The notes below the pieces were generated by a model. It saw only the letters and a program-made list of their open reading frames with translations. It was not told the DNA's origin and did not search any database. Both the position numbers and the translations under genes were made by a program. Below, one piece after another: positions 18,397 to 41,448 of a DNA stretch of 64,000 nucleotides. This DNA is from a virus (lineage: Duplodnaviria > Caudoviricetes). The stretch is from IMG/VR virus record IMGVR_UViG_3300020034_000012, positions 1,962-65,961 of that record, one strand, 5' to 3'. Each line of letters opens with the position of its first letter. The first letter of the stretch is position 1.

Positions 18397-18642
18397 TCAC
18401 AGTCCTTTCTCAATCGAGCTACACGCAAACACGCTGAGCACCACACCATCATCACAGTACGCAATCAGCTGCAGCTTGCCTTGCTCGCCATCGCCTACGC
18501 GCGGTGACTCGCTAAGTACCTGGTCAAGGAACGCGTCGAGCACACCGTGCGCCGCTTCACGCACGCGCTTGGTTTCCCGCTGCGCCCACGCTTCAGTCTG
18601 CTCATCGTCCGCATCAGCTCTCAGGTTGATTCGCTCTTCCAT
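18397..18642 (-). CDS. Hypothetical protein
   Basis: RBS-like GGGGAAGAG; tiles the operon. Confidence 0.55.
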   Translation of the reverse strand: MEERINLRADADDEQTEAWAQRETKRVREAAHGVLDAFLDQVLSESPRVGDGEQGKLQLIAYCDDGVVLSVFACSSIEKGL

Positions 18643-20125
18643 CTGTCTCTTCCCCTACCGCAACGATGTCTTTGCATGCCTGCCTGATGGCCGCTGCCAT
18701 CCGGTGGCCACGCTCTTCCATGCTCAGATCCAAGCGGCGCATGCGCAGCCGCTCGGGTGCGCTCCACATGCCAAGGATGGGATGGCGCCTTGACCACTCA
18801 ATGATCTCCGCATCGGTGCAGTGCAGCGTGCGCCCGTGCCTCGCCATCCCTTGCAGGTGGCGATACACCTTGCCAGCGTTGCGCCTGAAGTCCCCGGCCT
18901 CTAGCTGCTGTCTGTTAGGGTTCAGCCGGTAGGGCTCGGGTCTGCCACTGTCGATGCAGTCACGCAGCGGGGCATGCTCGATGCCATCGATGATGGCGCC
19001 GCTTGCAGTGCAGTTGGTGATGCGCTTGCGCACGTCTTCAGGCTGGTCTCTAAACCAGTTGGCAAAGCTCAGCATCCCGTGCGTGGTCCATGCCACCCCT
19101 ACTGGCTGGTGGTCTTTAGTCCAGTGACTGTGACCAGGCACTGCGATCACATCCTGCTCAAACTCACCCACCGTGGGCTTCTCTATCAGCGCACGCTTGA
19201 AGATGGGATCGATGGTAACGGTGGTCTCTTCATACGGGCAGCCGCTGGCGTACATGCGTGCGGTCAGTAGCCGGTGGTCAGGCTGCTCAGCCTCTAGCTT
19301 GAAGCTGCAGTCCTGACCCACCAGCAGCACGCGGTCAGCACCAAGCGACAGAGCCATCGACACAGCCGCAGTGGTGCAGCTTGAGCCGTACGCAAGCGGC
19401 AACATGCCCAGCCTCTGCGCATACGGGATGAGATTGGGTTCAGTGTTCACAAAGCACAGCAGCGGGTTCGGTGCGTACAGATTCTCAACGTCAGGCCAGT
19501 TGTCTGGGTGACCGGTCATGTCCATGGCGAAGTGACTAGAGCTATGGTTCATCCGCGCGATGCCTTCCACCACGGGCTTACTCTCAGTGCAGACCACCAC
19601 GTCCGGATGCACGTCCCCTTGAGCGCACGCACCAGCGGACGTGTTGACTGCGATGATGGGTCCGCGGTGCAGGCGCACTAGCGCAGTGCTCTGTTCAAGC
19701 GACACGCCAGCGCCCACGATGATGCAGGTCTGCCCCGTCATGTGCGTCAGCCCTTGACGCAGGTCCCGCATGCGCTCATCCGCAAGCATCACGCGCTTGA
19801 GGTTCCGCACGAAGTTCGTGCCCTGCCGCGCACCAATCGCTTCCACCGTGTGCTGGTTCAGGCGCGCCTGCTTGTAGTGCGCGCTGACCAGTTCCACGAT
19901 CGCCTGCGTCTGCGGCCAGCTCCGATAGTCAGGCTGCACGAACACTGTGCAGGTGGTGGAGTCATACTTGACCGTGTCATTGAGGAACGCCAGCGCCTGC
20001 GCATACCACTGCGCGCGCTCCTCTGGATGCAGATGCAGACGCATCGCGGTGGGTCCGCTCATCGCATCATGGCAGCCAATCAGGATGAACCGCTCTGCAC
20101 TATGCGGGTCCACCTTCATCCGCAA
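18614..20125 (-). CDS. Maf/DUF115 (MptE-like, motility-associated glycosyltransferase-like) protein
   Basis: NFVRNL, CIIVGAGVSL, IIAVNTS, PDVVV, GSSCTTAAVSMALSLGADRVLLVGQDCSF, ITNCTASGAIIDG. Confidence 0.8.
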   Translation of the reverse strand: MRMKVDPHSAERFILIGCHDAMSGPTAMRLHLHPEERAQWYAQALAFLNDTVKYDSTTCTVFVQPDYRSWPQTQAIVELVSAHYKQARLNQHTVEAIGARQGTNFVRNLKRVMLADERMRDLRQGLTHMTGQTCIIVGAGVSLEQSTALVRLHRGPIIAVNTSAGACAQGDVHPDVVVCTESKPVVEGIARMNHSSSHFAMDMTGHPDNWPDVENLYAPNPLLCFVNTEPNLIPYAQRLGMLPLAYGSSCTTAAVSMALSLGADRVLLVGQDCSFKLEAEQPDHRLLTARMYASGCPYEETTVTIDPIFKRALIEKPTVGEFEQDVIAVPGHSHWTKDHQPVGVAWTTHGMLSFANWFRDQPEDVRKRITNCTASGAIIDGIEHAPLRDCIDSGRPEPYRLNPNRQQLEAGDFRRNAGKVYRHLQGMARHGRTLHCTDAEIIEWSRRHPILGMWSAPERLRMRRLDLSMEERGHRMAAAIRQACKDIVAVGEETDGRANQPES

Positions 20126-33890: not shown

Positions 33891-34796
33891 ATGCCTGCCG
33901 TTGAACACACCACCCAGAAGCTACGCGGGACCCTGCGATCGCACAAAGTACTTGCGGCCGATGGGTGGGGACGGGGTGAACTGGAAGTGGGTGGGCTGTG
34001 CGTTACGCTGGTGGGCAAGCTTCTGAACGTGCGACCGGGTGACACGGTTGAAGTCATCGGGGAGCACAGCCGCCACGATAAATACGGTGAGCAGTTCACG
34101 GTGAAGAGCTGCACGCCAGTGCAACCGGACACAGCTGATGGCGTAGTCCTGTGGATGGCATCGCGGCTGCCTGACGTGGGCGCATCCCGCGCGCGCGCAT
34201 TGGTGGAAGCGTTCGGAGAATCGCTCTGGTCCATCATCGAGCGTGAACCGCTCAAGCTGATGGAAGTCAGTGGCATCACTGAAGCGCGCGCACTTGCTAT
34301 CGCCACCGCCTACGCTGAAGTCAGCCACGAACGTGAGCACATGTCTCAGCTGCGTGGGTGGGGGCTGACTGAAAGCCAGGTGGCCAAGTGCCTTGCTACG
34401 TGGGGATCGCTCGCCAGTGTGGTGGAGCACGTGCGCGCGGACCCGTTTGAGCTGGCATCGATCGTCGACGGGTTCGGCTTCAAGCGCGCGGACCAGGTGG
34501 CGCGCAAGATGGGTATTGCGCTCGACGCACCCGGACGCATCCGCGCAGCGATCCTGTACACGCTAGAACTGAGCGCGCAGGACGGGCATTGCTTCATGTG
34601 GGGTGGACGGTTGCGTGAAGTTGCAGCGGACCTGCTGAGCGTATCGCCAGACCTGGTCATCAATCAGATCTTCGCCGTGTTGGAAATGCAGCGGTGCGTC
34701 AAGCGTGGCGCGCGCATCTACAGCGTGAAGCTGGACAGGGCAGAAGAAGCGTGCGCGGTCAGCATCGCGCGCATGCTGGAAAGGCAAGCGTCGTGA
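33891..34796 (+). CDS. RecD2 N-terminal part (OB fold plus HhH repeats)
   Basis: HDKYGEQF, LPDVG, VSGI, DPFEL..VDGFGFKRADQVA, RIRAAILYTL..DGHCF. Confidence 0.88.
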   Translation: MPAVEHTTQKLRGTLRSHKVLAADGWGRGELEVGGLCVTLVGKLLNVRPGDTVEVIGEHSRHDKYGEQFTVKSCTPVQPDTADGVVLWMASRLPDVGASRARALVEAFGESLWSIIEREPLKLMEVSGITEARALAIATAYAEVSHEREHMSQLRGWGLTESQVAKCLATWGSLASVVEHVRADPFELASIVDGFGFKRADQVARKMGIALDAPGRIRAAILYTLELSAQDGHCFMWGGRLREVAADLLSVSPDLVINQIFAVLEMQRCVKRGARIYSVKLDRAEEACAVSIARMLERQAS

Positions 34797-35002
34797 AGCC
34801 ACCCGCAGAACCTCCGTCGACACTATGCCGCTGCGTGTCCAGTCCTAGCTGGGGGTGGACGCGCAGCCACAGCGCTGACTGTTCATCGGATGAGCGCGCA
34901 GGGTTCGGACCCGCATGCAAGCACTGCGGACACAGCTACTGCAAGTGTTCGTGGTGGAAGCGGTGGCGCACGGGCAACACGCATAAGCGGGATGGGTGGT
35001 AG
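34793..35002 (+). CDS. Small Cys/Trp-rich ORF between the RecD2 halves
   Basis: GTGA overlap with upstream stop; ends 2 nt before next ATG; CRC, CKHCGH.YCKC. Confidence 0.5.
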   Translation: MKPPAEPPSTLCRCVSSPSWGWTRSHSADCSSDERAGFGPACKHCGHSYCKCSWWKRWRTGNTHKRDGW

Positions 35003-35004
35003 CG

Positions 35005-36198
35005 ATGACCATCGAGCTAGACCCGTCGCAGCTGATGGCTGTTCGGTTGATGGTGGAGTCACGCTTCGCCTGCGTGACCGGTGGCGCTGGCGTGGGTAAG
35101 ACCACGTCCCTACGCTTTGCCATCCAAGAGATTGACGCCAAGGGGTTGCCGTTCGAACTGGCAGCGCCGACTGGCAAAGCGGCCAAGCGCATGACTGAAG
35201 CGACGGGCCAGCCAGCGCAGACGATCCACCGCTTGCTGCAGTGGCGTAATGGTCCGCAGCTAAACCATCACTTCCCGATAGACACCAGCGTGGTCATCAT
35301 AGATGAGGCGTCGATGCTGGACATCGTCCTACTGCAGTTCCTGCTGGACGCGATTGACCCGACGCAGACGCGGCTGATTCTGATTGGCGATGCGAACCAG
35401 CTTCCCCCGGTGGGACCTGGCTGCCCGTTCGGTGAGCTGTGCGAGTCAGGCTTAGTCCCCGTCGCACGCTTGACCAAACTCCACCGCGCAGCAGAGCTGA
35501 GCTGGATCAATCAGGCCAGTCAGGCCGTGCTGCAGCGCAAGCTTCCTGACCTGCACACTGAGCGCGATGATTTCCGCTTCATCCCAGTGGCCACGTCCGC
35601 TGACATCGCACCCGCCATCACCGAACTGTTCACGCGTGCGACGTCCGAAGATCTGCAGGTGCTCATCCCGCAGAACCCGCGCACTGGTGGCGTGACCGAA
35701 GCGAACCTGGCGCTACAGGCGCGCATCAATCCACCGCGTGAAGGCGAAACGCATTACCGCAGACGGGACAAGACTGAGCTGCGCATCCATGACCGGGTCA
35801 TCCAAACGAAAAACGATTACCAGCTGCAGATTTTCAACGGTGAAGTGGGGACGGTAGTGGACGTGGCCACAGACAAAGTCACGGTCAACTTCATGGACCG
35901 TGGGGATGTGGGCTACACGCCGCAGCAGGCAGGCGCACTGCAGCTGGCGTATGCATTGACCGTGCACAAGATGCAGGGTTCGGAGTTTCCGTGGATCTGT
36001 TTTGTGTGCCACTCGACACACACGCATCTGCTTTCGCCGCAACTGATCTACACTGCGATCACCCGGGGCAAGAAAGGCGTAATCATCGTGGGTGATGAGA
36101 AGGGAATGCAGCAGGGTTTGCGAATGAAAAACCCACCACGCCGCAACTCAGGACTCATTCAACGGCTGACCAAACACGTGGACTTCATCGCAGCATGA
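35005..36198 (+). CDS. RecD2-like SF1B helicase core
   Basis: GGAGVGKTT, APTGKAAKR, DEASM, GDANQLPPVG, AYALTVHKMQGSEF, YTAITR. Confidence 0.93.
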   Translation: MTIELDPSQLMAVRLMVESRFACVTGGAGVGKTTSLRFAIQEIDAKGLPFELAAPTGKAAKRMTEATGQPAQTIHRLLQWRNGPQLNHHFPIDTSVVIIDEASMLDIVLLQFLLDAIDPTQTRLILIGDANQLPPVGPGCPFGELCESGLVPVARLTKLHRAAELSWINQASQAVLQRKLPDLHTERDDFRFIPVATSADIAPAITELFTRATSEDLQVLIPQNPRTGGVTEANLALQARINPPREGETHYRRRDKTELRIHDRVIQTKNDYQLQIFNGEVGTVVDVATDKVTVNFMDRGDVGYTPQQAGALQLAYALTVHKMQGSEFPWICFVCHSTHTHLLSPQLIYTAITRGKKGVIIVGDEKGMQQGLRMKNPPRRNSGLIQRLTKHVDFIAA

Positions 36199-36539
36199 CT
36201 GGACTGCCAGAGTTGTGGTGCAGGTTTTGTAAAGAGCTAACCAAGCAGGTGGTTAGCGAAGTGAACCCGCACCATCGAACATGCATCACCTGCTGGCGCA
36301 GACAGAAGGACGGGGTACGCATTGAGATTACGGACGGGGAACGCTTCAGCGAGCAAGCACCCCGCAGAGATACGCGGCCACCCACGCTGCCGCCGCCGCC
36401 AATGATTCCCGCGGTGGACTACGTAGAGCGGCTAGAGTTCAACGATGTCCTGCGCCGCATCGAGACGATTGAGCGTGTGCTAGCCGCGCAAAGTAACCAG
36501 TTGTCAGGAGTAGCTGCACTAACCACGCTGTATAAATAG
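36195..36539 (+). CDS. Zn-ribbon hypothetical protein
   Basis: CRFC..CITC; ATGA overlap. Confidence 0.55.
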   Translation: MTGLPELWCRFCKELTKQVVSEVNPHHRTCITCWRRQKDGVRIEITDGERFSEQAPRRDTRPPTLPPPPMIPAVDYVERLEFNDVLRRIETIERVLAAQSNQLSGVAALTTLYK

Positions 36540-36547
36540 AGGGACCG

Positions 36548-36973
36548 ATGTCCAAAGATGCAACGGCAGTAAGCGACGATGAGGGGGCGCGTTCGGCCAC
36601 GCGCTTCATCGAACATGTAGCCGATGGCCAATGCGCTGCGGATCTGTCGCACGCAATCCATAAGCTGGGCTTGCGCCTGCTTGCTGAAACCAAGCAGCGC
36701 GCGGACAAGTGCACGGGCGAAGTTACGCTCAGGCTGAAGTTCATTTCAGAGCCTAGTGGGATCGTCGGCGTGGGCTACGAAGTCAACAGTAAGGAACCGA
36801 AGTCCAAGACCAGCGGTTCAGTCTTCTGGCTGACCAAAGGTGGCAACTTCAGCACGGACAATCCGCGGCAGCAGTCATTGCCAGGCATCCGCGAAGTGAA
36901 ACGTAACGATGAAGTCCGTGACCTGGGTGCAGTCGACCCAGCCAATGACAACGCTGAACCTAGGAGCGTGTGA
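36548..36973 (+). CDS. YfdP-like protein (partner of DUF2303)
   Basis: GEVTLRL, FWLTKGGNFSTDNPRQ; directly upstream of the DUF2303 gene. Confidence 0.6.
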   Translation: MSKDATAVSDDEGARSATRFIEHVADGQCAADLSHAIHKLGLRLLAETKQRADKCTGEVTLRLKFISEPSGIVGVGYEVNSKEPKSKTSGSVFWLTKGGNFSTDNPRQQSLPGIREVKRNDEVRDLGAVDPANDNAEPRSV

Positions 36974-36974
36974 C

Positions 36975-37838
36975 ATGGCCAGCTACTCAGAGGCAACCAC
37001 GGATGCAGCTGCCATCATCCAAGCCACGCTAGACAACTCAGCGGTGGATGTAATTGATCTGGACCGCACGAAGATCGTATCGGTCCCCGATGGTCAAGAG
37101 CTGAAGTCACTCAAGCCATTTCTGGATGAGTACCTTGAACGCCCAGAGCGCATCAAAGGTTGCGCGCACCTGTCCACGCTGGCCAGCTTCATCGATCACA
37201 TCAAGCGGTTCAAGAAACCCAGCTCTGCAGTCTTCGTGGGTGAGAAGAGTCTGCAGGCCATCTATGACTATCACGATGATGTGCCTGCGTTCTGCGTGCA
37301 CCGCGCTAGGTACATGTTCCCCTGGTCACCCGAGTGGCTGGCGTGGGAAGGCATCGACGGGGATCCACGTGGACAGCTGGGGTTCGCACAGTTCCTTGAG
37401 GACCACATCAGTGACATCACCACTGCGGAAGACGAGGACAGCAAACGTCTGTTCGGGGAGCTGGGCTTCAAGCTTGCAACGCCCGCGCAGATGCTGGCCA
37501 TGTCGCGTGGCTTGACCGTGCGTGTGGATTCAGAAGCCACAGCCAAAGCCAACCTGAGCACCGGCGAGATTGAAGTAGCGTACAAGGAATCGCACACGGA
37601 CACGGCGGGTCAGCCGCTCAAGGTCCCCGGTGGGTTCCTGCTTCTCATCCCTGCGTTCAAGCGTGGGGTGCTCTACCGCATCCCCGTGCGCCTGCGCTAC
37701 CGCGTGCAACACGGCAAAGTGCTGTGGACCACGCTGATGCTGCGTAAGGATGCAGTGGTGCAGGATGCCATCAAGGATGCGTGCGAGCGCGTCATTGAAG
37801 AGACTCAGGCGCCGCTCTTCCACGGTGACCCGGAATAA
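36975..37838 (+). CDS. DUF2303 / YfdQ family protein
   Basis: AIYDYH, HRA, SPEWLAW, FAQFLED, IPAFKRG, RLRYR. Confidence 0.82.
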   Translation: MASYSEATTDAAAIIQATLDNSAVDVIDLDRTKIVSVPDGQELKSLKPFLDEYLERPERIKGCAHLSTLASFIDHIKRFKKPSSAVFVGEKSLQAIYDYHDDVPAFCVHRARYMFPWSPEWLAWEGIDGDPRGQLGFAQFLEDHISDITTAEDEDSKRLFGELGFKLATPAQMLAMSRGLTVRVDSEATAKANLSTGEIEVAYKESHTDTAGQPLKVPGGFLLLIPAFKRGVLYRIPVRLRYRVQHGKVLWTTLMLRKDAVVQDAIKDACERVIEETQAPLFHGDPE

Positions 37839-37927
37839 CCTTGCGCGCGTACCACGGGACTTGATATCACGCAAGGTCGGACCCTTGAAAGGACGCAAGG
37901 ATATGACCCACCACCAAAGCAGCAGCA

Positions 37928-38239
37928 GTGTCCCCCGATGAGGCGGATGCACGGATTCAGAAGGCGCTAGCAGAAGCGCGCTACGTACAAGAGTTTGTCA
38001 GCAAGCACTACGCAGAGGTCGTGCTTGCTGGCGAAGTCGTGCGGCTGACCAACGTGCAGGCGCGCATCCACGTCATGATCAAATCGTGGCGAGAGATTGC
38101 CGCAGAACAGCGCGCGCTCGCACTCGAGTGGCGCACGCAGGGCGAGACACTTGCGTGGCATGCCATTCGCTTGGATAGCCGCGCTGAGATTCTGGAAGTG
38201 CAGGCGTTGTTACTCGAATCGATATTGACCACCCGCTGA
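37928..38239 (+). CDS. Hypothetical helical protein
   Basis: LAGEVVRL; fills gap. Confidence 0.5.
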   Translation: MSPDEADARIQKALAEARYVQEFVSKHYAEVVLAGEVVRLTNVQARIHVMIKSWREIAAEQRALALEWRTQGETLAWHAIRLDSRAEILEVQALLLESILTTR

Positions 38240-38252
38240 GAGGACAAGACCG

Positions 38253-38537
38253 ATGACCACCGAGAACGATACGGAACTAGGGGACGCAACCTTCAGCAGC
38301 ATCCCGGACCACCTGGGTGCGATGGCTGTGATGGACAAGACCGGTGATAGCAAGGTGACGTGGGACCCGAACCAACCCGCTGAAGTGGAAGCAGCGCGCG
38401 CGCAGTTCGATGTGTTGAAGAAGAAAGGTTACAGCGCGTTCCGCATGGGCGCGGATGACCAGCAGGGTGCACGCATGCAGGACTTCGATCCCGCTGCGCG
38501 CCGCATCATCTTCGTTCCGCAGATGCAAGGCGGGTGA
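38253..38537 (+). CDS. Small protein ending in diglycine (ubiquitin-like candidate)
   Basis: GAGGA RBS; 94 aa; ends RIIFVPQMQGG-stop. Confidence 0.75.
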   Translation: MTTENDTELGDATFSSIPDHLGAMAVMDKTGDSKVTWDPNQPAEVEAARAQFDVLKKKGYSAFRMGADDQQGARMQDFDPAARRIIFVPQMQGG

Positions 38538-38541
38538 TGCG

Positions 38542-39237
38542 ATGCCAATGGCTATGTGGAAGCAGCACCTGACGTGGACCAACGCCAGCAATGCAACTAC
38601 CGCCACCACTGTCACACCCATCATCGTTTGGGATGCAGCGGCAAACGTGACCAGCGGATCGTCAGCGTGGACATCTGTCACATGGAACACGGACGGGACT
38701 GCTGCATACGATATCACTGCCGCAGCGCTAGCAGCTGCGCGCAAGTGGTTGGTGCAATGGCCGCCCCCGAACTTCGTACAACCATTGCCGCAGCCAGCGG
38801 ACATCAGACAAGAGACACCTGAAGAGCGCAATGCACGGTGGGCCATGCGGGATCGCTACGCACAAGAGCAGGCAGGCCATGACCATGCAGCGCGCTTGGC
38901 ATCGCGTGGCAGGTTCTTAGAACACGAACGTGCGAACGCGCGCGCTGAGAAGCTGCTGGTGGAAATGCTGTCACCACACCAAGCAGAAGAGCTGCGCGCA
39001 AGCGGACACTTCCACGTGCGGCTGATGAACGGCAGGCGCTACCGCATCAGCCGCGGTCAGCATGGCAACGTGGTTGAAGTCGATGGTGCGGGACGTGGTC
39101 TGCGTTCGCTGTGCGTGCAACCGGTGGGTCACCTGCCTGATGCAGACGCGATGCTGGCGCAGAAGCTGTGGCTTGAAACGGATGAGGCTACGTTACTGAG
39201 AACTGCGAACATCACCCCGATGCGCGCGCGCGCGTAG
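38542..39237 (+). CDS. Partner of the diglycine protein, Cys-containing C-terminal domain
   Basis: W/T/S/N-rich N-terminus, charged helix, then AEKLL..GRRYRI..GNV..LCVQP..LP.AD.MLAQKLWLETDE..AN. Confidence 0.75.
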   Translation: MPMAMWKQHLTWTNASNATTATTVTPIIVWDAAANVTSGSSAWTSVTWNTDGTAAYDITAAALAAARKWLVQWPPPNFVQPLPQPADIRQETPEERNARWAMRDRYAQEQAGHDHAARLASRGRFLEHERANARAEKLLVEMLSPHQAEELRASGHFHVRLMNGRRYRISRGQHGNVVEVDGAGRGLRSLCVQPVGHLPDADAMLAQKLWLETDEATLLRTANITPMRARA

Positions 39238-39246
39238 GTGAAACCC

Positions 39247-39399
39247 ATGATCCCCTGGCCGCTATGTGCCCTAGTTTGCCTGGCCTGTTTCTTCTCTGGG
39301 CTGTGGCTCGGATACGGCCAGGGGATCAGTCACCGTCGATGGTTTGACCAGACGAAACACCGGATAGACAACGGTGATGACGGGGAAGAAACCAAGTAG
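39247..39399 (+). CDS. Small membrane peptide
   Basis: Manual translation MIPWPLCALVCLACFFSGLWLGYG..., 50 aa. Confidence 0.4.
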   Translation: MIPWPLCALVCLACFFSGLWLGYGQGISHRRWFDQTKHRIDNGDDGEETK

Positions 39400-39465
39400 C
39401 TGCCTAGCCTTGCAAGAATGCAAGGCGTGAATCAACTGGCATGGTATGACACAGGGGTAGAGCCG

Positions 39466-39684
39466 ATGACGCCAGCCAACGATAATGACGATCCCATTGT
39501 GGCTGAGCTGCGCTCGCTTCAAGCGGATTGCGAGGCGTTCGCTAAGCGGATGAACGAACGGCTGGCCAAGCTTCAGGCGCGCGTGGCAGGGAAGCCTACG
39601 CGCGCGAAAGCTGGCGCACCTACGCCAGAGGACTGGGATATTGTTTACCGCGCCAAGGCTCGCAAGCAGCGGCGCATGGGGTAG
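39466..39684 (+). CDS. Small basic protein upstream of integrase (possible directionality factor)
   Basis: Ends 3 nt before int; basic C-terminus; function inferred from position only. Confidence 0.55.
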   Translation: MTPANDNDDPIVAELRSLQADCEAFAKRMNERLAKLQARVAGKPTRAKAGAPTPEDWDIVYRAKARKQRRMG

Positions 39685-39687
39685 TTC

Positions 39688-40965
39688 ATGGGACGCAAGC
39701 TAAAGGGATACACGCGCAGCCACAATGGCGTCATCGAAGTCTGGGTCGGTGGTGACTACATCAGTTCAGTCACAGACCCTGACCAGGCTGAGCGCGTAAA
39801 GAATGCTGCAGTCCAGGACCGCACAGGCACTGCGCCGTCCATCTTCTCTGTTTACGCGAAGGCGTGGTGGATAGCGCGTGAAGAGCTGGCGCAGAAGCTT
39901 GGCCGTGTGCGTGCATTCGAAAAAGAGAAAAGCGTGTGGGACTTCCACGTTACCGGTGCGAAGTTCTTTCACGCACCGCTGAAGAGCCTCAAGCCGAAGA
40001 TGATTCAGCAGTGGATCGGTGTGATGGGAAAGAAGCACGCGATGCACGCCATCACCTGCAAGGGTAAGGACGGCAAGCCGAAGACGATTCTGCGTGACAC
40101 GGGACGTCCGCTCGCAAGGCGCGTAATCGAACAGGCTTTGAAATACGTCAAGCAAGTTCTGGATGCGGCGATCGTCGATGGCAAGATGAGCGGCAACGTC
40201 AACCCTGCGCGGCTGGTACGCTTACCGCGTGAAGGGGTGCCGCAGACCGATGGCCAGCTCATCGTGCACTTGTTAGTGGAAGAGATTGAGCAACTGCTAG
40301 CGATGGACTTGCCGCCACTGCAGCGCGCTGTGTTCACCGTCGCCATCTATACGGGGCTGCGTGATGATGAGCTGTGGGGATTGCGCTGGGTGGATGTCAT
40401 CCTAGATGGAGCGCAGCCAGAGATTCGCGTGCGTCGCAGCTACGCTGGTCCGTGCAAGACAAAACACTCCATCCGGGATGTGCCGCTATTCGATGAAGCG
40501 ATCGATGCGCTCAGAGAGTGGCGCGCTGTTCGGTCTGCGTTAGCAGCGCCTGTCATCGGGGACGCGCTGGTCTTCCCGGCTGAGTCCGGTGGATGCCACC
40601 ACGAAAGCTTCACGGCTGGATGGCGAGACAAGTACCGCAAAGTAAATGGCAAGGTGGTGCGGTCCCCTGGCTGGCGCGCGCGCGCTGGCATCCGTGAAGA
40701 AGTGGACTTCAAAGACATGCGCCACACATGCGGCTGCCACCTGGTGCAGGGGACGTGGACCGATGGGGAATCTATGCCCCTGGGTGCAGTGAAGACGTGG
40801 CTAGGCCACAGCTCTGAAGCCACCACAGAGAAGCACTACGCGGCGTTCACATCGGACAATCTGCATTCGCGTTTGCGGGGACGTCGCAACCAGAAACCAC
40901 GTGCGGATAAAGCGGGAATAAAGCGGGAGGGTAAAACGACCATACGTGCTAAGTCTGCGGATTGA
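39688..40965 (+). CDS. int: Tyrosine integrase
   Basis: YTGLRDDEL (R), KTK (K), KDMRHT, LGHSS, KHYA (Y). Confidence 0.93.
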   Translation: MGRKLKGYTRSHNGVIEVWVGGDYISSVTDPDQAERVKNAAVQDRTGTAPSIFSVYAKAWWIAREELAQKLGRVRAFEKEKSVWDFHVTGAKFFHAPLKSLKPKMIQQWIGVMGKKHAMHAITCKGKDGKPKTILRDTGRPLARRVIEQALKYVKQVLDAAIVDGKMSGNVNPARLVRLPREGVPQTDGQLIVHLLVEEIEQLLAMDLPPLQRAVFTVAIYTGLRDDELWGLRWVDVILDGAQPEIRVRRSYAGPCKTKHSIRDVPLFDEAIDALREWRAVRSALAAPVIGDALVFPAESGGCHHESFTAGWRDKYRKVNGKVVRSPGWRARAGIREEVDFKDMRHTCGCHLVQGTWTDGESMPLGAVKTWLGHSSEATTEKHYAAFTSDNLHSRLRGRRNQKPRADKAGIKREGKTTIRAKSAD

Positions 40966-41073
40966 TTGAAGTTGCACCCATAGCTCAGCCGGAAGAGCAG
41001 CGGCCTTCTAAGCAGCCGCTACGCTGAATGATTTCATAGACTTAGATGAGCATCCCGCTCTATTCCGCTTTAT
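40907..41073. other. attP: arm-type repeats flanking a tRNA-derived core
   Basis: ATAAAGCGGGA twice (40907-40928); inverted variants at 41053-41073; CTAAGTCT/AGACTTAG inverted pair; AGCGGC/GCCGCT symmetry around CTTCTAAGCA. Confidence 0.8.
40974..41013 (+). tRNA. 5-prime fragment of tRNA-Arg(UCU); att core, not a full tRNA
   Basis: GCACCCA TA GCTC AGCCGGAA GAGC A GCGGC CT-TCT-AA GC; no T-arm or 3-prime acceptor strand follows. Confidence 0.82.
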
Positions 41074-41103
41074 AAAACCGCAGCACCCGGACAGGGGGTC
41101 CGC

Positions 41104-41448
41104 ATGGACTCGCGAGACAACGCACCGCCTAGGCCAGCCATCTGCTTGCACGCAATCGGGGACGATGACGCGCCCCGTCCCCTGATGCTGGTCATCACCC
41201 CGGACTCATTCGCCGTGTACGAAACGCTGCCCCTGAACTGCGTGGCGAATGGGACCGCAGCTTGGGAAGTCCATGGCCCACTTGGATCGGTGGTGCTGCG
41301 TGGTAGCGGGGACTTCCCGCTGACCCGTGAACTTGAACGCGAGATTGTGCAGTGTTGGTATGAGCACTACGTCAGTAGCGATGGCGCAGACCCCGTGCAC
41401 ACGTTCAGCAAGTACACGCGCAGCACTCCACCGGATGGGATGCACTGA
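41104..41448 (+). CDS. Hypothetical protein
   Basis: TGATG-coupled to next gene. Confidence 0.55.
   Translation: MDSRDNAPPRPAICLHAIGDDDAPRPLMLVITPDSFAVYETLPLNCVANGTAAWEVHGPLGSVVLRGSGDFPLTRELEREIVQCWYEHYVSSDGADPVHTFSKYTRSTPPDGMH

What the first reader, a model, noticed from the sequence alone, without database searches (positions are those of the whole stretch)
38253..39237. Small C-terminal diglycine protein plus Cys-containing partner: candidate minimal conjugation system
Seen: a 94-aa protein with a beta-beta-alpha-beta-like pattern ends in FVPQMQGG-stop. Four nt later starts a protein with a W/T/S/N-rich N-terminus, a charged helix and a compact C-terminal domain whose only Cys lies in LCVQP, followed by LPxADxMLAQKLWLETDE. 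Established: a free C-terminal GG marks ubiquitin-like and ThiS/MoaD modifiers that are transferred through Cys thioesters. I see no E1, canonical E2 or JAB gene in the window. Inference: a two-gene phage modifier/ligase module, possibly using a host ThiF/MoeB-type E1, or a decoy against bacterial ubiquitin-like antiphage systems.
Basis: partly seen in the sequence, partly recalled or inferred. Interest (0 to 1): 0.75.

Follow-up and report, generated by a model that had tools for sequence, protein, structure and literature searches.

The report
Phage Gly-Gly ubiquitin-like protein with cysteine partner
This soil phage carries a tightly linked gene pair, seen in many uncultured phages and named in no database searched: a small ubiquitin-shaped protein ending in Gly-Gly and a partner with one invariant cysteine predicted to sit beside that tail, which looks like a protein-tagging kit with no activating enzyme of its own.

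Summary
Gene A (38253-38537, 94 aa) ends FVPQMQGG-stop. Gene B (38542-39237, 231 aa) starts 4 nt later, and its only Cys is C191.

- **Gene A family:** it is large and unnamed, with 1815 clusters at E<=1e-3. Of the best 150 members, 137 end in GG.
- **Gene B architecture:** a Trp/Thr-rich, poorly modelled N-terminus, a 50-residue helix, then a compact Cys domain modelled with high confidence.
- **Linkage:** two motif-picked samples gave 63 viral loci from 61 contigs. The partner lies downstream on the same strand in 62. The one miss is cut by its contig end.
- **Conservation:** no other gene is conserved nearby. C191 is invariant in every partner examined.
- **Predicted complex:** ipSAE is 0.73, against 0.02 for the best control. 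The tail (residues 88-94) lies along partner residues 191-199.
- **Missing enzymes:** this complete 66-kb phage has no ThiF-type E1, Prok-JAB, UQ_con or ThiS match. None of 28 related phage records has an E1 above cut-off.
- **E2 question:** an E2 fold was not shown, and no His is invariant.

My reading, at 0.4: a ubiquitin-type acyl-transfer pair that depends on a host E1-like enzyme. The decoy, sulfur-carrier and purely non-covalent readings remain open.

This scan had already found the same module on other DNA, in at least 8 earlier findings. I found no paper that describes it.

The parts
38253..38537 (+). Gene A: 94-aa Gly-Gly-terminated beta-grasp-like protein (P0001), stop codon included
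38529..38534 (+). Codons for G93-G94, the free C-terminal Gly-Gly (GGC GGG), followed by TGA
   Evidence: Sequence. G94 is invariant and G93 at least 90% conserved in 109 members. Residues 88-94 lie in the predicted interface.
38542..39237 (+). Gene B: 231-aa partner (P0002), stop codon included, starting 4 nt after the stop of gene A
   Evidence: It has 78 homologues at E<=1e-3. A homologue lies downstream of the GG gene in 29 of 29 and 34 of 35 related loci.
38542..38817 (+). Partner residues 1-92: Trp/Thr-rich, variable, poorly modelled N-terminal region
   Evidence: In this protein W is 7.6% and T 15.2%. Pooled over partner N-termini, W is 5.8% and T 14.9%, against 1.6% and 5.0% in background ORFs. 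pLDDT blocks are 41-67.
38818..38967 (+). Partner residues 93-142: single long charged helix
   Evidence: AF2 H93-142 with pLDDT 95-98. Its C-terminal part (127-142) is in the predicted interface.
38968..39219 (+). Partner residues 143-226: compact alpha/beta Cys domain
   Evidence: AF2 gives H145-154, E156-160, E166-170, E177-180, E186-191, H200-213, H215-221, E223-226. C191 and D202 are invariant in 51 of 51 and 35 of 35 rows, and N223 in 49 of 51 and 35 of 35.
39112..39114 (+). Codon TGC for C191, the only Cys of the partner
   Evidence: Sequence. It is invariant in 31 of 31, 51 of 51 and 35 of 35 aligned partners. It lies within interface residues 191-199.

Best explanation
Genes A and B form a self-contained phage accessory module whose two products bind each other.

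- Gene A makes a small beta-grasp, ubiquitin-like protein whose free C-terminal Gly-Gly is the working end.
- Gene B makes a three-part protein. A variable Trp/Thr-rich N-terminus probably selects a target. A long helix follows. A compact domain then lays the Gly-Gly tail along the loop after its invariant Cys.

Most likely the tail carboxylate is first adenylated by an E1-like enzyme that the phage does not encode. Candidates are the host's MoeB/ThiF-type enzyme or the E1 of a host ubiquitin-like defence system. The activated tail is then taken as a thioester on C191 and passed to a protein amine, so the partner acts as a minimal E2/E3-like carrier.

**Shown here:** the two families, strict GG and Cys conservation, strict linkage and co-divergence, absence of a phage E1, and a predicted complex with the tail at the Cys.

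**Inferred:** activation by a host enzyme, thioester formation, transfer to a target, and the nature of that target.
For: 1. **GG end.** 137 of the best 150 family members end in GG, and G94 is invariant in 109 of 109. 27 of 29 and 33 of 35 related loci end in GG. One search pattern of the second sample contained GG, so that second count is biased.

3. **Linkage.** The partner lies downstream on the same strand in 29 of 29 loci of sample 1 (28 viral, 1 MAG) and in 34 of 35 of sample 2. The miss, L058, has 189 nt after the GG gene. In sample 1 the gap is at most 4 nt, or the ORFs overlap, in 22 of 29 loci. In +-6 kb only these two families recur in all 30 loci, and the next real cluster is in 7 of 30. 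The two families co-diverge: Mantel r = 0.744, reached by 0 of 5000 permutations.

4. **Cys.** It is invariant in 31 of 31, 51 of 51 and 35 of 35 partners.

5. **No invariant His.** His at Cys+2 occurs in only 25 of 51 and 26 of 35 rows, and it is Gln here. That fits a thioester carrier better than a Cys-His protease.

6. **Predicted complex.** The score is 0.73, with 0.02 for the best of 3 controls. That mark was reached by 58 of 80 solved complexes and 2 of 110 mismatched pairs; these counts hold only roughly because my own alignments were used. The runs agree in at least 92% of contacts, and the partner chain has pLDDT of at least 84. GG-protein residues 88-94 touch partner residues 191-199. 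Tail residue 92 pairs with 192-193 and residue 89 with 194-195, so the strand runs antiparallel and places G93-G94 next to C191. That placement is my extrapolation.

7. **No E1 in cis.** ThiF is absent from this complete record and is above cut-off in 0 of 28 related viral records, 10 of which are at least 90% complete.

8. **Known parallel.** In Type I Bub operons the Ubl is encoded directly upstream of, and fused to, its E2 (PMC11601596, section 5). One fused GG-domain-plus-partner protein exists here too: P0233, 359 aa.
Against: - **No known Ubl family.** No Pfam, NCBIfam or PHROG family covers the GG protein, and PF02597 ThiS does not match the record.
- **No precedent found.** I found no published case of a host MoeB/ThiF serving a foreign Ubl.
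- **HPN-like Asn is not universal.** N176 is kept in 47 of 51 and 29 of 35 rows.
- **GG is not universal.** A few members lack it: L001 ends ..AAPG, L046 ..QAG, Rctr197k ..IPG.
- **No data on expression or chemistry.**
Confidence: 0.4

Rival explanations
1. Counter-defence decoy or trap. The GG protein mimics the Ubl, or the Gly-ended substrate, of a bacterial ubiquitin-like defence such as Bil, Bub or type II CBASS Cap2. Together with its partner it soaks up or blocks the defence E1/E2. The partner Cys captures the activated tail in a dead end.
For: - The module is almost confined to phages. Atlas look-alike clusters for the GG protein are 82-96% Viruses. A single motif found 28 viral loci but only 1 locus among 185,579 species genomes. 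In a sample of one bacterial phylum, 1 of 401 genomes had a match.
- It sits among early accessory genes next to the integrase.
- Its neighbours differ from phage to phage, as is usual for accessory or anti-defence genes.
- Bil and Bub are described as antiphage Ubl pathways (PMC10557695 abstract; PMC11601596 abstract and section 5).
Against: - A pure decoy would not need an invariant Cys in a second protein. It would also not need co-divergence over about 50-60% sequence distance.
- Neither protein hits PADLOC defence models.
- The GG family has no detectable similarity to known Ubl families.
- The defences named are patchy in bacteria, whereas the module is very common in soil phages.
Confidence: 0.2
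2. Non-covalent heterodimer. The GG tail is small only so that it can thread into a narrow groove of the partner, and the Cys is structural or a redox sensor. The complex acts by binding a host factor through the Trp/Thr-rich region.
For: - A confident interface is predicted, and it covers much more than the tail: residues 25-32, 61-65 and 71-74 of protein A, and helix residues 127-142 and 202-223 of the partner.
- No enzyme family is recognisable.
- The invariant D202 and N223 lie in the interface.
Against: Strict conservation of GG at the very C-terminus of a beta-grasp protein is, in known biology, tied to chemistry at the carboxylate. Examples are ubiquitin and other Ubls, ThiS, MoaD, Urm1 and SAMPs (established knowledge). 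A single invariant Cys next to that end would be an unlikely coincidence.
Confidence: 0.15
3. Sulfur-carrier pair of the ThiS/MoaD type. A host E1-like enzyme adenylates the GG end, which is then thiocarboxylated. The partner Cys acts as persulfide donor or acceptor for a phage-directed thiolation.
For: - MoeB/ThiF-type enzymes are near-universal in bacteria: PF00899 was found in 14 of 14 control genomes.
Against: - PF02597 ThiS does not match.
- No sulfurtransferase, MoaE, ThiG or other thiolation enzyme is conserved nearby.
- A hypervariable, low-complexity N-terminus on the partner fits target recognition better than metabolism.
Confidence: 0.12
4. The partner is a Cys peptidase or transpeptidase that acts at the Gly-Gly end. 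It is either DUB-like or processes fused or extended precursors.
For: - A fused GG-domain-plus-partner protein exists: P0233, with 5 member sequences.
- A few members carry residues after the GG: L003 GG+5, L069, and several.
- About half of the partners have His at Cys+2.
Against: - No His is invariant. This window's protein has Gln at Cys+2, and the Bradyrhizobium-type homologues have Ala or Met there.
- Most GG proteins are made already ending in GG, so nothing needs cleaving.
- No peptidase family or fold matched.
Confidence: 0.08

Closest known systems
Bacterial ubiquitination-like operons Bil (BilABCD) and Bub (PMC10557695, abstract read; PMC11601596, abstract and sections 5-6 read)
   Same: [quoted passage not shown]
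- The Ubl gene lies directly before the gene of its Cys- or Ser-bearing carrier. In Type I Bub the two are even fused (BubAB). Here the order is the same, and one fused form, P0233, exists.
- Both belong to the phage-bacterium conflict.
- No E3 is present, and the E2 is proposed to pick targets itself.
   Different: - Bil and Bub are bacterial defence operons of three to four genes that always include an E1, usually with a peptidase. This module is phage-borne, has two genes, and has no E1 or JAB.
- Neither protein shows sequence similarity to the Bil/Bub families or to any Pfam E2 or Ubl family.
ThiS/MoaD/TtuB/Urm1 sulfur carriers and their MoeB/ThiF-type E1-like activators (Pfam PF02597, PF00899)
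   Different: PF02597 does not match. No E1, MoaE, ThiG or sulfurtransferase is linked. The fixed neighbour is instead an unrelated Cys protein with a variable N-terminus.
Eukaryotic-type E2 (UBC fold, Pfam PF00179) and prokaryotic E2-like families
   Same: The secondary-structure order is helix, four-strand meander, then helices, with one invariant Cys beside the docked Ubl tail. A near-invariant Asn lies 15 residues before the Cys.
   Different: - There is no UQ_con match, and no E2 chain appeared in any fold search.
- The Cys ends strand 4 rather than lying in the loop after an HPN motif.
- The domain is only about 85 residues.
Hypothetical proteins Rctr197k_113 and Rctr197k_112 of Virus Rctr197k (GenBank KX853510.1), and Bradyrhizobium plasmid pairs (e.g. 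CP126019.1 QIH92_53600/53595)
   Same: These are true homologues of the pair in public, named records. The pairs are adjacent and on the same strand. hhalign probability is 96.9% for Rctr197k_112 against the partner profile.
   Different: - All are annotated only as hypothetical proteins.
- The Rctr197k protein ends ..IPG.
- The Bradyrhizobium partners lack the Trp/Thr-rich N-terminus.
- In one plasmid (L030) the gene order is inverted and the small protein ends ..VVG.

Membership tests
Ubiquitin-like beta-grasp modifiers (Ubl in the broad sense) | Beta-grasp fold | tested here: inconclusive
Ubiquitin-like beta-grasp modifiers (Ubl in the broad sense) | Exposed C-terminal Gly(-Gly) on a short flexible tail | tested here: met
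   The protein ends QMQGG-stop. 137 of 150 members end in GG, and G94 is invariant in 109 of 109.
Ubiquitin-like beta-grasp modifiers (Ubl in the broad sense) | Covalent attachment through the terminal carboxylate (thioester, then isopeptide) | not testable with these tools
   This needs biochemistry. Only a predicted complex with the tail beside C191 is available.
ThiS/MoaD family (Pfam PF02597) | Match to the family profile | tested here: not met
   PF02597 gave no match in the whole record at E<=1, while the control found it in 13 of 14 genomes. P0001 had no Pfam hit at E<=1, and none of the families that matched the 109 members is PF02597.
ThiS/MoaD family (Pfam PF02597) | Linked E1-like (ThiF/MoeB) or sulfur-insertion partner genes | tested here: not met
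   ThiF is absent from the own record and above cut-off in 0 of 28 related viral records. No third gene is conserved.
E2 / UBC-like conjugating enzymes | Match to UQ_con or another E2 profile | tested here: not met
   P0002 had no Pfam hit at E<=1. PF00179 gave no match in the record. Across 51 partner members, no family matched more than 2, and none of the 25 listed (of 38) is an E2. The Prok-E2 families were tested only through these hmmscan runs.
E2 / UBC-like conjugating enzymes | UBC fold | tested here: inconclusive
E2 / UBC-like conjugating enzymes | Invariant catalytic Cys next to the Ubl tail | tested here: met
   C191 is invariant in 31 of 31, 51 of 51 and 35 of 35. Residues 191-199 touch tail residues 88-94 in the predicted complex. 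This is prediction only.
Bil / Bub operons | Operon holding E1 + E2 + Ubl (+ JAB or DUF6527 peptidase) | tested here: not met
   Only two genes are conserved. There is no ThiF or Prok-JAB in the record, and no PADLOC hit. The operon definition is taken from PMC11601596, section 5.
Papain-like or other Cys-His peptidases / DUBs | Invariant Cys-His pair | tested here: not met
   His at Cys+2 occurs in 25 of 51 and 26 of 35 rows, and it is Gln in this window. H174 is kept in only 13 of 51. No His column is invariant.

The most novel reading that the evidence does not exclude
A very common, so far undescribed, virus-encoded minimal ubiquitin-like tagging system. The phage brings only the tag and a combined carrier/target-selector. 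It borrows the cell's sulfur-carrier E1 (MoeB/ThiF), or an immune E1, to activate the tag. It then covalently marks host or rival-phage proteins chosen by the fast-evolving Trp/Thr-rich arm. This would be the first protein-conjugation pathway split between a virus and its bacterial host.
Probability: 0.3. Interest if true: 0.9.

Novelty: new variant of a known kind. Interest (0 to 1): 0.72.

Why it matters
Ubiquitin-like conjugation in bacteria has so far been described as a host defence that always carries its own E1. The examples are Bil, Bub and type II CBASS (PMC10557695 and PMC11601596, as read).

Here the phage side holds a two-gene unit with the chemical hallmarks of such a system but no activating enzyme. 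The unit is abundant: 1815 clusters at 50% identity in a profile search, and 61 distinct viral contigs from just two short motifs.

If the pair conjugates, three things follow:
- Viruses of bacteria would be shown to use ubiquitin-type tagging offensively.
- It would reveal how a Ubl can be activated in trans.
- It would supply a very small tagging pair, of 94 and about 140 residues, for study and possibly for tools.

If it is a decoy, it would be a new class of anti-defence against Ubl-based immunity. Either outcome gives a name and a testable function to two large families of 'hypothetical' phage proteins.

Tried and rejected
- **Close-relative scans with A1 found nothing.** In genome contigs, none of 60 stretches was confirmed. 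In viral contigs, none of 45 was. The window's own clade is rare: 3 homologues.
- **blastn of 36000-40000 against GenBank phages:** no match.
- **tblastn of P0002 against GenBank phages:** no match.
- **PDB profile searches found nothing credible.** The best E was 0.39 for the GG family and 0.079 for the partner, both to unrelated proteins.
- **E2 fold.** No E2/UBC/RWD chain appeared in any list for the partner model. The absence is therefore not evidence.
- **ESM Atlas** returned only unnamed clusters. The partner hits score below 0.9 and are leads only.
- **PADLOC:** no hit for the pair or its six neighbours.
- **Read-through or frameshift fusion of A and B in this window was rejected.** B is in the +1 frame relative to A, and the spacing varies among loci between -1 and +4 nt.
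- **Recent foreign insertion was rejected.** GC is 60.7% and 60.8% for the two genes against 59.7% for the window.
- **Own promoter or terminator:** none was seen on the + strand in 36000-41200. This is a weak consensus scan.
- **Expression:** no RNA holder is listed. The 7 runs listed are soil-metagenome DNA runs from 5 studies, and one may be the source.
- **Literature.** Six searches turned up no paper describing a phage-encoded GG protein plus Cys partner. Only listings and abstracts were seen for those hits. Supplementary tables of the Bil and Bub papers, which were closed, could list related operons that I could not check.
- **Recalled, not read.** The operon classes of Iyer, Burroughs and Aravind (2006) and the Bil phage-assembly paper are recalled, or cited only through PMC11601596.
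- **Near-duplicate loci.** Several of the 63 viral loci are near-duplicates: L005/L006, L020/L021, L024/L025 and L027/L028. L038 and L052 repeat the contigs of L002 and L026. The independent count is therefore lower than the raw count.
Full report
**What is there.**
The window is all but the first 1,961 bases of a 65,961-base IMG/VR virus record that CheckV rates 100% complete.

The record is a temperate tailed phage:
- Mu-like head protease and portal, and a large terminase, on the minus strand;
- a DUF927/DUF3854 primase-helicase-like protein;
- a plus-strand early block with a PD-(D/E)XK nuclease, a RecD2-like helicase, DUF2303 and a tyrosine integrase.

No tRNA gene was found.

Inside the early block, gene A (38253-38537) encodes 94 aa ending FVPQMQGG-stop. 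Gene B (38542-39237) starts 4 nt later and encodes 231 aa with a single Cys, C191.

The plus strand between 36000 and 41200 shows no promoter-like or terminator-like site. The GC content of both genes equals that of the phage. Each gene is present once in the record.

**The Gly-Gly protein.**
Neither Pfam nor PHROGs recognises it, and the word-indexed search found only three close homologues.

The exhaustive profile search changed the picture. It found 1815 clusters at E<=1e-3 and 558 at E<=1e-10. Of the 150 listed, 137 end in exactly GG. Most of the others carry GG followed by a few residues.

In an alignment of 109 members, G94 is invariant. G93, G31, W37, E44, V45, A48, A62, F78 and D79 are at least 90% conserved.

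None of the 109 is covered by a real Pfam, NCBIfam or PHROG family. The most frequent Pfam hit matched 3 of 109 members, the most frequent NCBIfam hit 2 of 109, and PHROGs 0 of 109. A profile search of all PDB sequences found nothing better than E 0.39.

AlphaFold2 gives strands 22-28 and 31-37, helix 42-57, then strands 60-65, 71-75 and 84-89, followed by a five-residue tail. Mean pLDDT is 76.3 from only four sequences.

The fold class is therefore likely but not proven. Membership of any known Ubl family is not supported.

**The partner.**
It has 78 homologues at E<=1e-3.

The AlphaFold2 model has three parts:
- residues 1-90, low confidence;
- one long helix, residues 93-142;
- a compact domain at pLDDT 94-98: helix 145-154, four strands (156-160, 166-170, 177-180, 186-191), helices 200-213 and 215-221, and strand 223-226. 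C191 is the last residue of strand 4.

C191 and D202 are invariant in 51 of 51 aligned partners. Q147, L138, L143 and A222 are invariant there too.

In a second, independent set of 34 partners plus P0002, C191, D202 and N223 are kept in 35 of 35. Q147 falls to 27 of 35, R168 to 17 of 35 and N176 to 29 of 35.

The residue two after the Cys is His in only 25 of 51 and 26 of 35 rows. It is Gln in this window. No His is invariant, which argues against a Cys-His peptidase.

No Pfam family matches more than 2 of 51 members, and no E2 family is among those listed. The PDB sequence search is empty.

In the viral structure library the best match is A0A1P8DIP4 (E 3.9e-7, 268 aa). Its length equals that of Rctr197k_112, and I showed separately that Rctr197k_112 is a partner homologue.

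**The N-terminal arm.**
Partner N-termini share almost no sequence but do share composition. Pooled W is 5.8% and T 14.9%, against 1.6% and 5.0% in background ORFs. WxxW or WxxxW spacings are frequent. The Bradyrhizobium-type homologues lack this arm.

A variable, low-complexity arm on a conserved catalytic-looking core is what one expects of a target-selecting part. This is inference.

**Linkage.**
A motif from one subfamily (FDPxAER[IV]I) retrieved 28 viral loci and 1 MAG locus. A motif set from another subfamily retrieved 35 viral loci, two of them on contigs already seen. The loci were chosen through the GG protein only.

A partner homologue lies downstream on the same strand in 29 of 29 and 34 of 35 loci. 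The exception, L058, ends 189 nt after the GG gene.

In the first set the two ORFs are at most 4 nt apart, or overlap, in 22 of 29 loci. Seven have gaps of 81-625 nt, and five of those hold an extra 132-163-aa ORF.

Clustering all ORFs within +-6 kb shows that only these two families are shared by all 30 loci. The next real family is in 7 of 30.

Pairwise distances of the two families correlate: Mantel r = 0.744, reached by 0 of 5000 permutations. Mean p-distances are 0.52 and 0.61. This shows long co-inheritance as a unit. By itself it does not show physical co-evolution.

The GG end is kept in 27 of 29 and 33 of 35 loci (the second count is biased, because one search pattern contained GG).

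**Where else the pair occurs.**
- **GenBank phages:** only two uncultured records match. In Virus Rctr197k, genes 113 and 112 are adjacent; the small protein ends ..IPG, and hhalign gives 96.9% for the partner. The second record is a 595-kb uncultured phage.
- **Plasmids:** 13 Bradyrhizobium records match. One has the pair in the same order with the small protein ending ..LVGG. Another has the order inverted, and there it ends ..VVG.
- **Cellular genomes:** 1 of 401 Acidobacteriota genomes sampled has the GG family, and that one is the MAG used as centre.
- **Sequencing runs:** the window's DNA is held only by soil-metagenome runs.

**Missing enzymes.**
PF00899 (ThiF), PF14464 (Prok-JAB), PF00179 (UQ_con) and PF02597 (ThiS) have no match at E<=1 in the complete record. 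The control genomes gave the expected hits.

Among the 28 related viral records, none has a ThiF match above the cut-off. One has a 14.4-bit fragment with three internal stops. Ten of the 28 are at least 90% complete.

The one bacterial genome carrying a degenerate pair has two ordinary ThiF-family genes elsewhere. This shows only that such enzymes are at hand in hosts.

**Predicted complex.**
Partner residues 90-231 (50-row alignment) and GG-protein residues 15-94 (109 rows) gave a score of 0.73 in three runs, against 0.02 for the best of three controls.
- The mark was reached by 58 of 80 solved complexes and 2 of 110 mismatched pairs. These counts hold only roughly, because my own alignments were used.
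- The runs agree in at least 92% of contacts, and the partner chain has pLDDT of at least 84.
- The lowest-error contacts pair tail residues 88-92 with partner residues 192-195, and with helix residues 205-210 and 218-221.
- Residue 92 meets 192-193 and residue 89 meets 194-195. The tail therefore runs antiparallel to the segment after the Cys, and G93-G94 fall next to C191. Both are in the listed interface; the exact placement is my extrapolation.

The model supports binding. It does not show binding, and it says nothing about chemistry.

**Reading.**
These facts point to chemistry at the terminal carboxylate:
- a strictly terminal GG on a beta-grasp-like protein;
- a single invariant Cys beside it in a fixed partner;
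- the same gene order as the Ubl-E2 pairs of Bub operons, where the two are even fused (PMC11601596, sections 5-6), with one fused form here (P0233);
- no invariant His.

A free carboxylate cannot form a thioester without activation, and the phages carry no E1. The simplest completion is that a cellular E1-like enzyme adenylates the tail.

I put 0.4 on this 'split' ubiquitin-type transfer model. The rest is divided among a decoy against Ubl-based immunity (0.2), a purely non-covalent complex (0.15), a sulfur-carrier role (0.12) and a peptidase or transpeptidase role (0.08).

**Novelty.**
Six literature searches found no description. Pfam, NCBIfam, PHROGs, PADLOC, PDB and the ESM Atlas hold no named family.

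The same module was already reported by this scan on other DNA, in at least eight earlier findings. Their main claims are strict GG, invariant Cys, strict pairing, no E1, Bradyrhizobium plasmids and rare fusions. I re-derived these here from independent searches.

- two independent locus samples with explicit counts;
- the co-divergence test;
- the residue-level result that only Cys, Asp and Asn survive across subfamilies while His does not;
- the compositional signature of the N-terminal arm;
- the explicit failure to show an E2 fold.

Noticed in passing
window 38542-38817, and partner N-termini in L002-L029: The partner's N-terminal 60-130 residues are Trp- and Thr-rich in nearly all phage copies. 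Pooled W is 5.8% and T 14.9%, against 1.6% and 5.0% in background, with frequent WxxW/WxxxW spacings. The sequence itself is barely conserved and poorly modelled. The Bradyrhizobium-type homologues lack this region. It may be a target-binding arm.
   Followed up: partly
L008:6213-6611, L018:6224-6667, L020:6368-6859, L021:4192-4608, L023:6260-6685: In 5 of 30 loci an extra 132-163-aa ORF sits between the GG gene and the partner. Most copies begin MCL(S/T), and they share the motifs GWKEF, DKW, GFH.Y and EM(F/Y)VPS. The L008 copy has no Pfam hit. An N-terminal Cys right after Met recalls N-terminal-nucleophile hydrolases; that is recalled, not tested.
   Followed up: partly
L017:6340-6774 and L017:6776-8131: One phage has two partner paralogues in tandem after its GG gene. 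The second is fused to a calcineurin-like phosphoesterase domain (PF00149, E 5.8e-8).
   Followed up: no
P0233 (359 aa, database protein, 5 member sequences): This is a single ORF. The GG domain (...FVPAMQGG) runs straight into a partner with a Trp/Thr-rich arm, a helix and the Cys domain. It parallels the Ubl-E2 fusion BubAB. A sequencing or assembly error was not excluded.
   Followed up: partly
window 39238-39399 (+): A 53-aa ORF starts at a GTG directly after the partner's stop (TAGGTG). It has a hydrophobic stretch (IPWPLCALVCLACFFSGLWLGY), so it may be a small membrane protein. It has no PADLOC hit.
   Followed up: no
window 33891-34796 and 34996-36198 (+): The RecD2-like helicase appears as two ORFs about 200 nt apart. 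The first has OB_YrrC, HHH_5 and HHH_RecD2 domains. The second has AAA_30, AAA_19, SH3_13 and UvrD_C_2. This is either a split gene or a frameshift.
   Followed up: no
window 18617-20125 (-): A 503-aa protein carries an MptE-like domain (PF01973, E 8.9e-19; 6-hydroxymethylpterin diphosphokinase-like). This is unusual in a phage.
   Followed up: no
L030 (NZ_CP121651.1) and L031 (CP126019.1), Bradyrhizobium plasmids: The pair also occurs on Bradyrhizobium plasmids, among IS elements and integrases. In one plasmid the order is GG protein then partner. In the other the order is inverted and the small protein ends ..VVG.
   Followed up: partly
L032 (KX853510.1, Virus Rctr197k) 2381-2635: A CRISPR repeat region is annotated about 1.2 kb upstream of the pair in this 197-kb uncultured virus. 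A transposase-like gene lies next to it.
   Followed up: no
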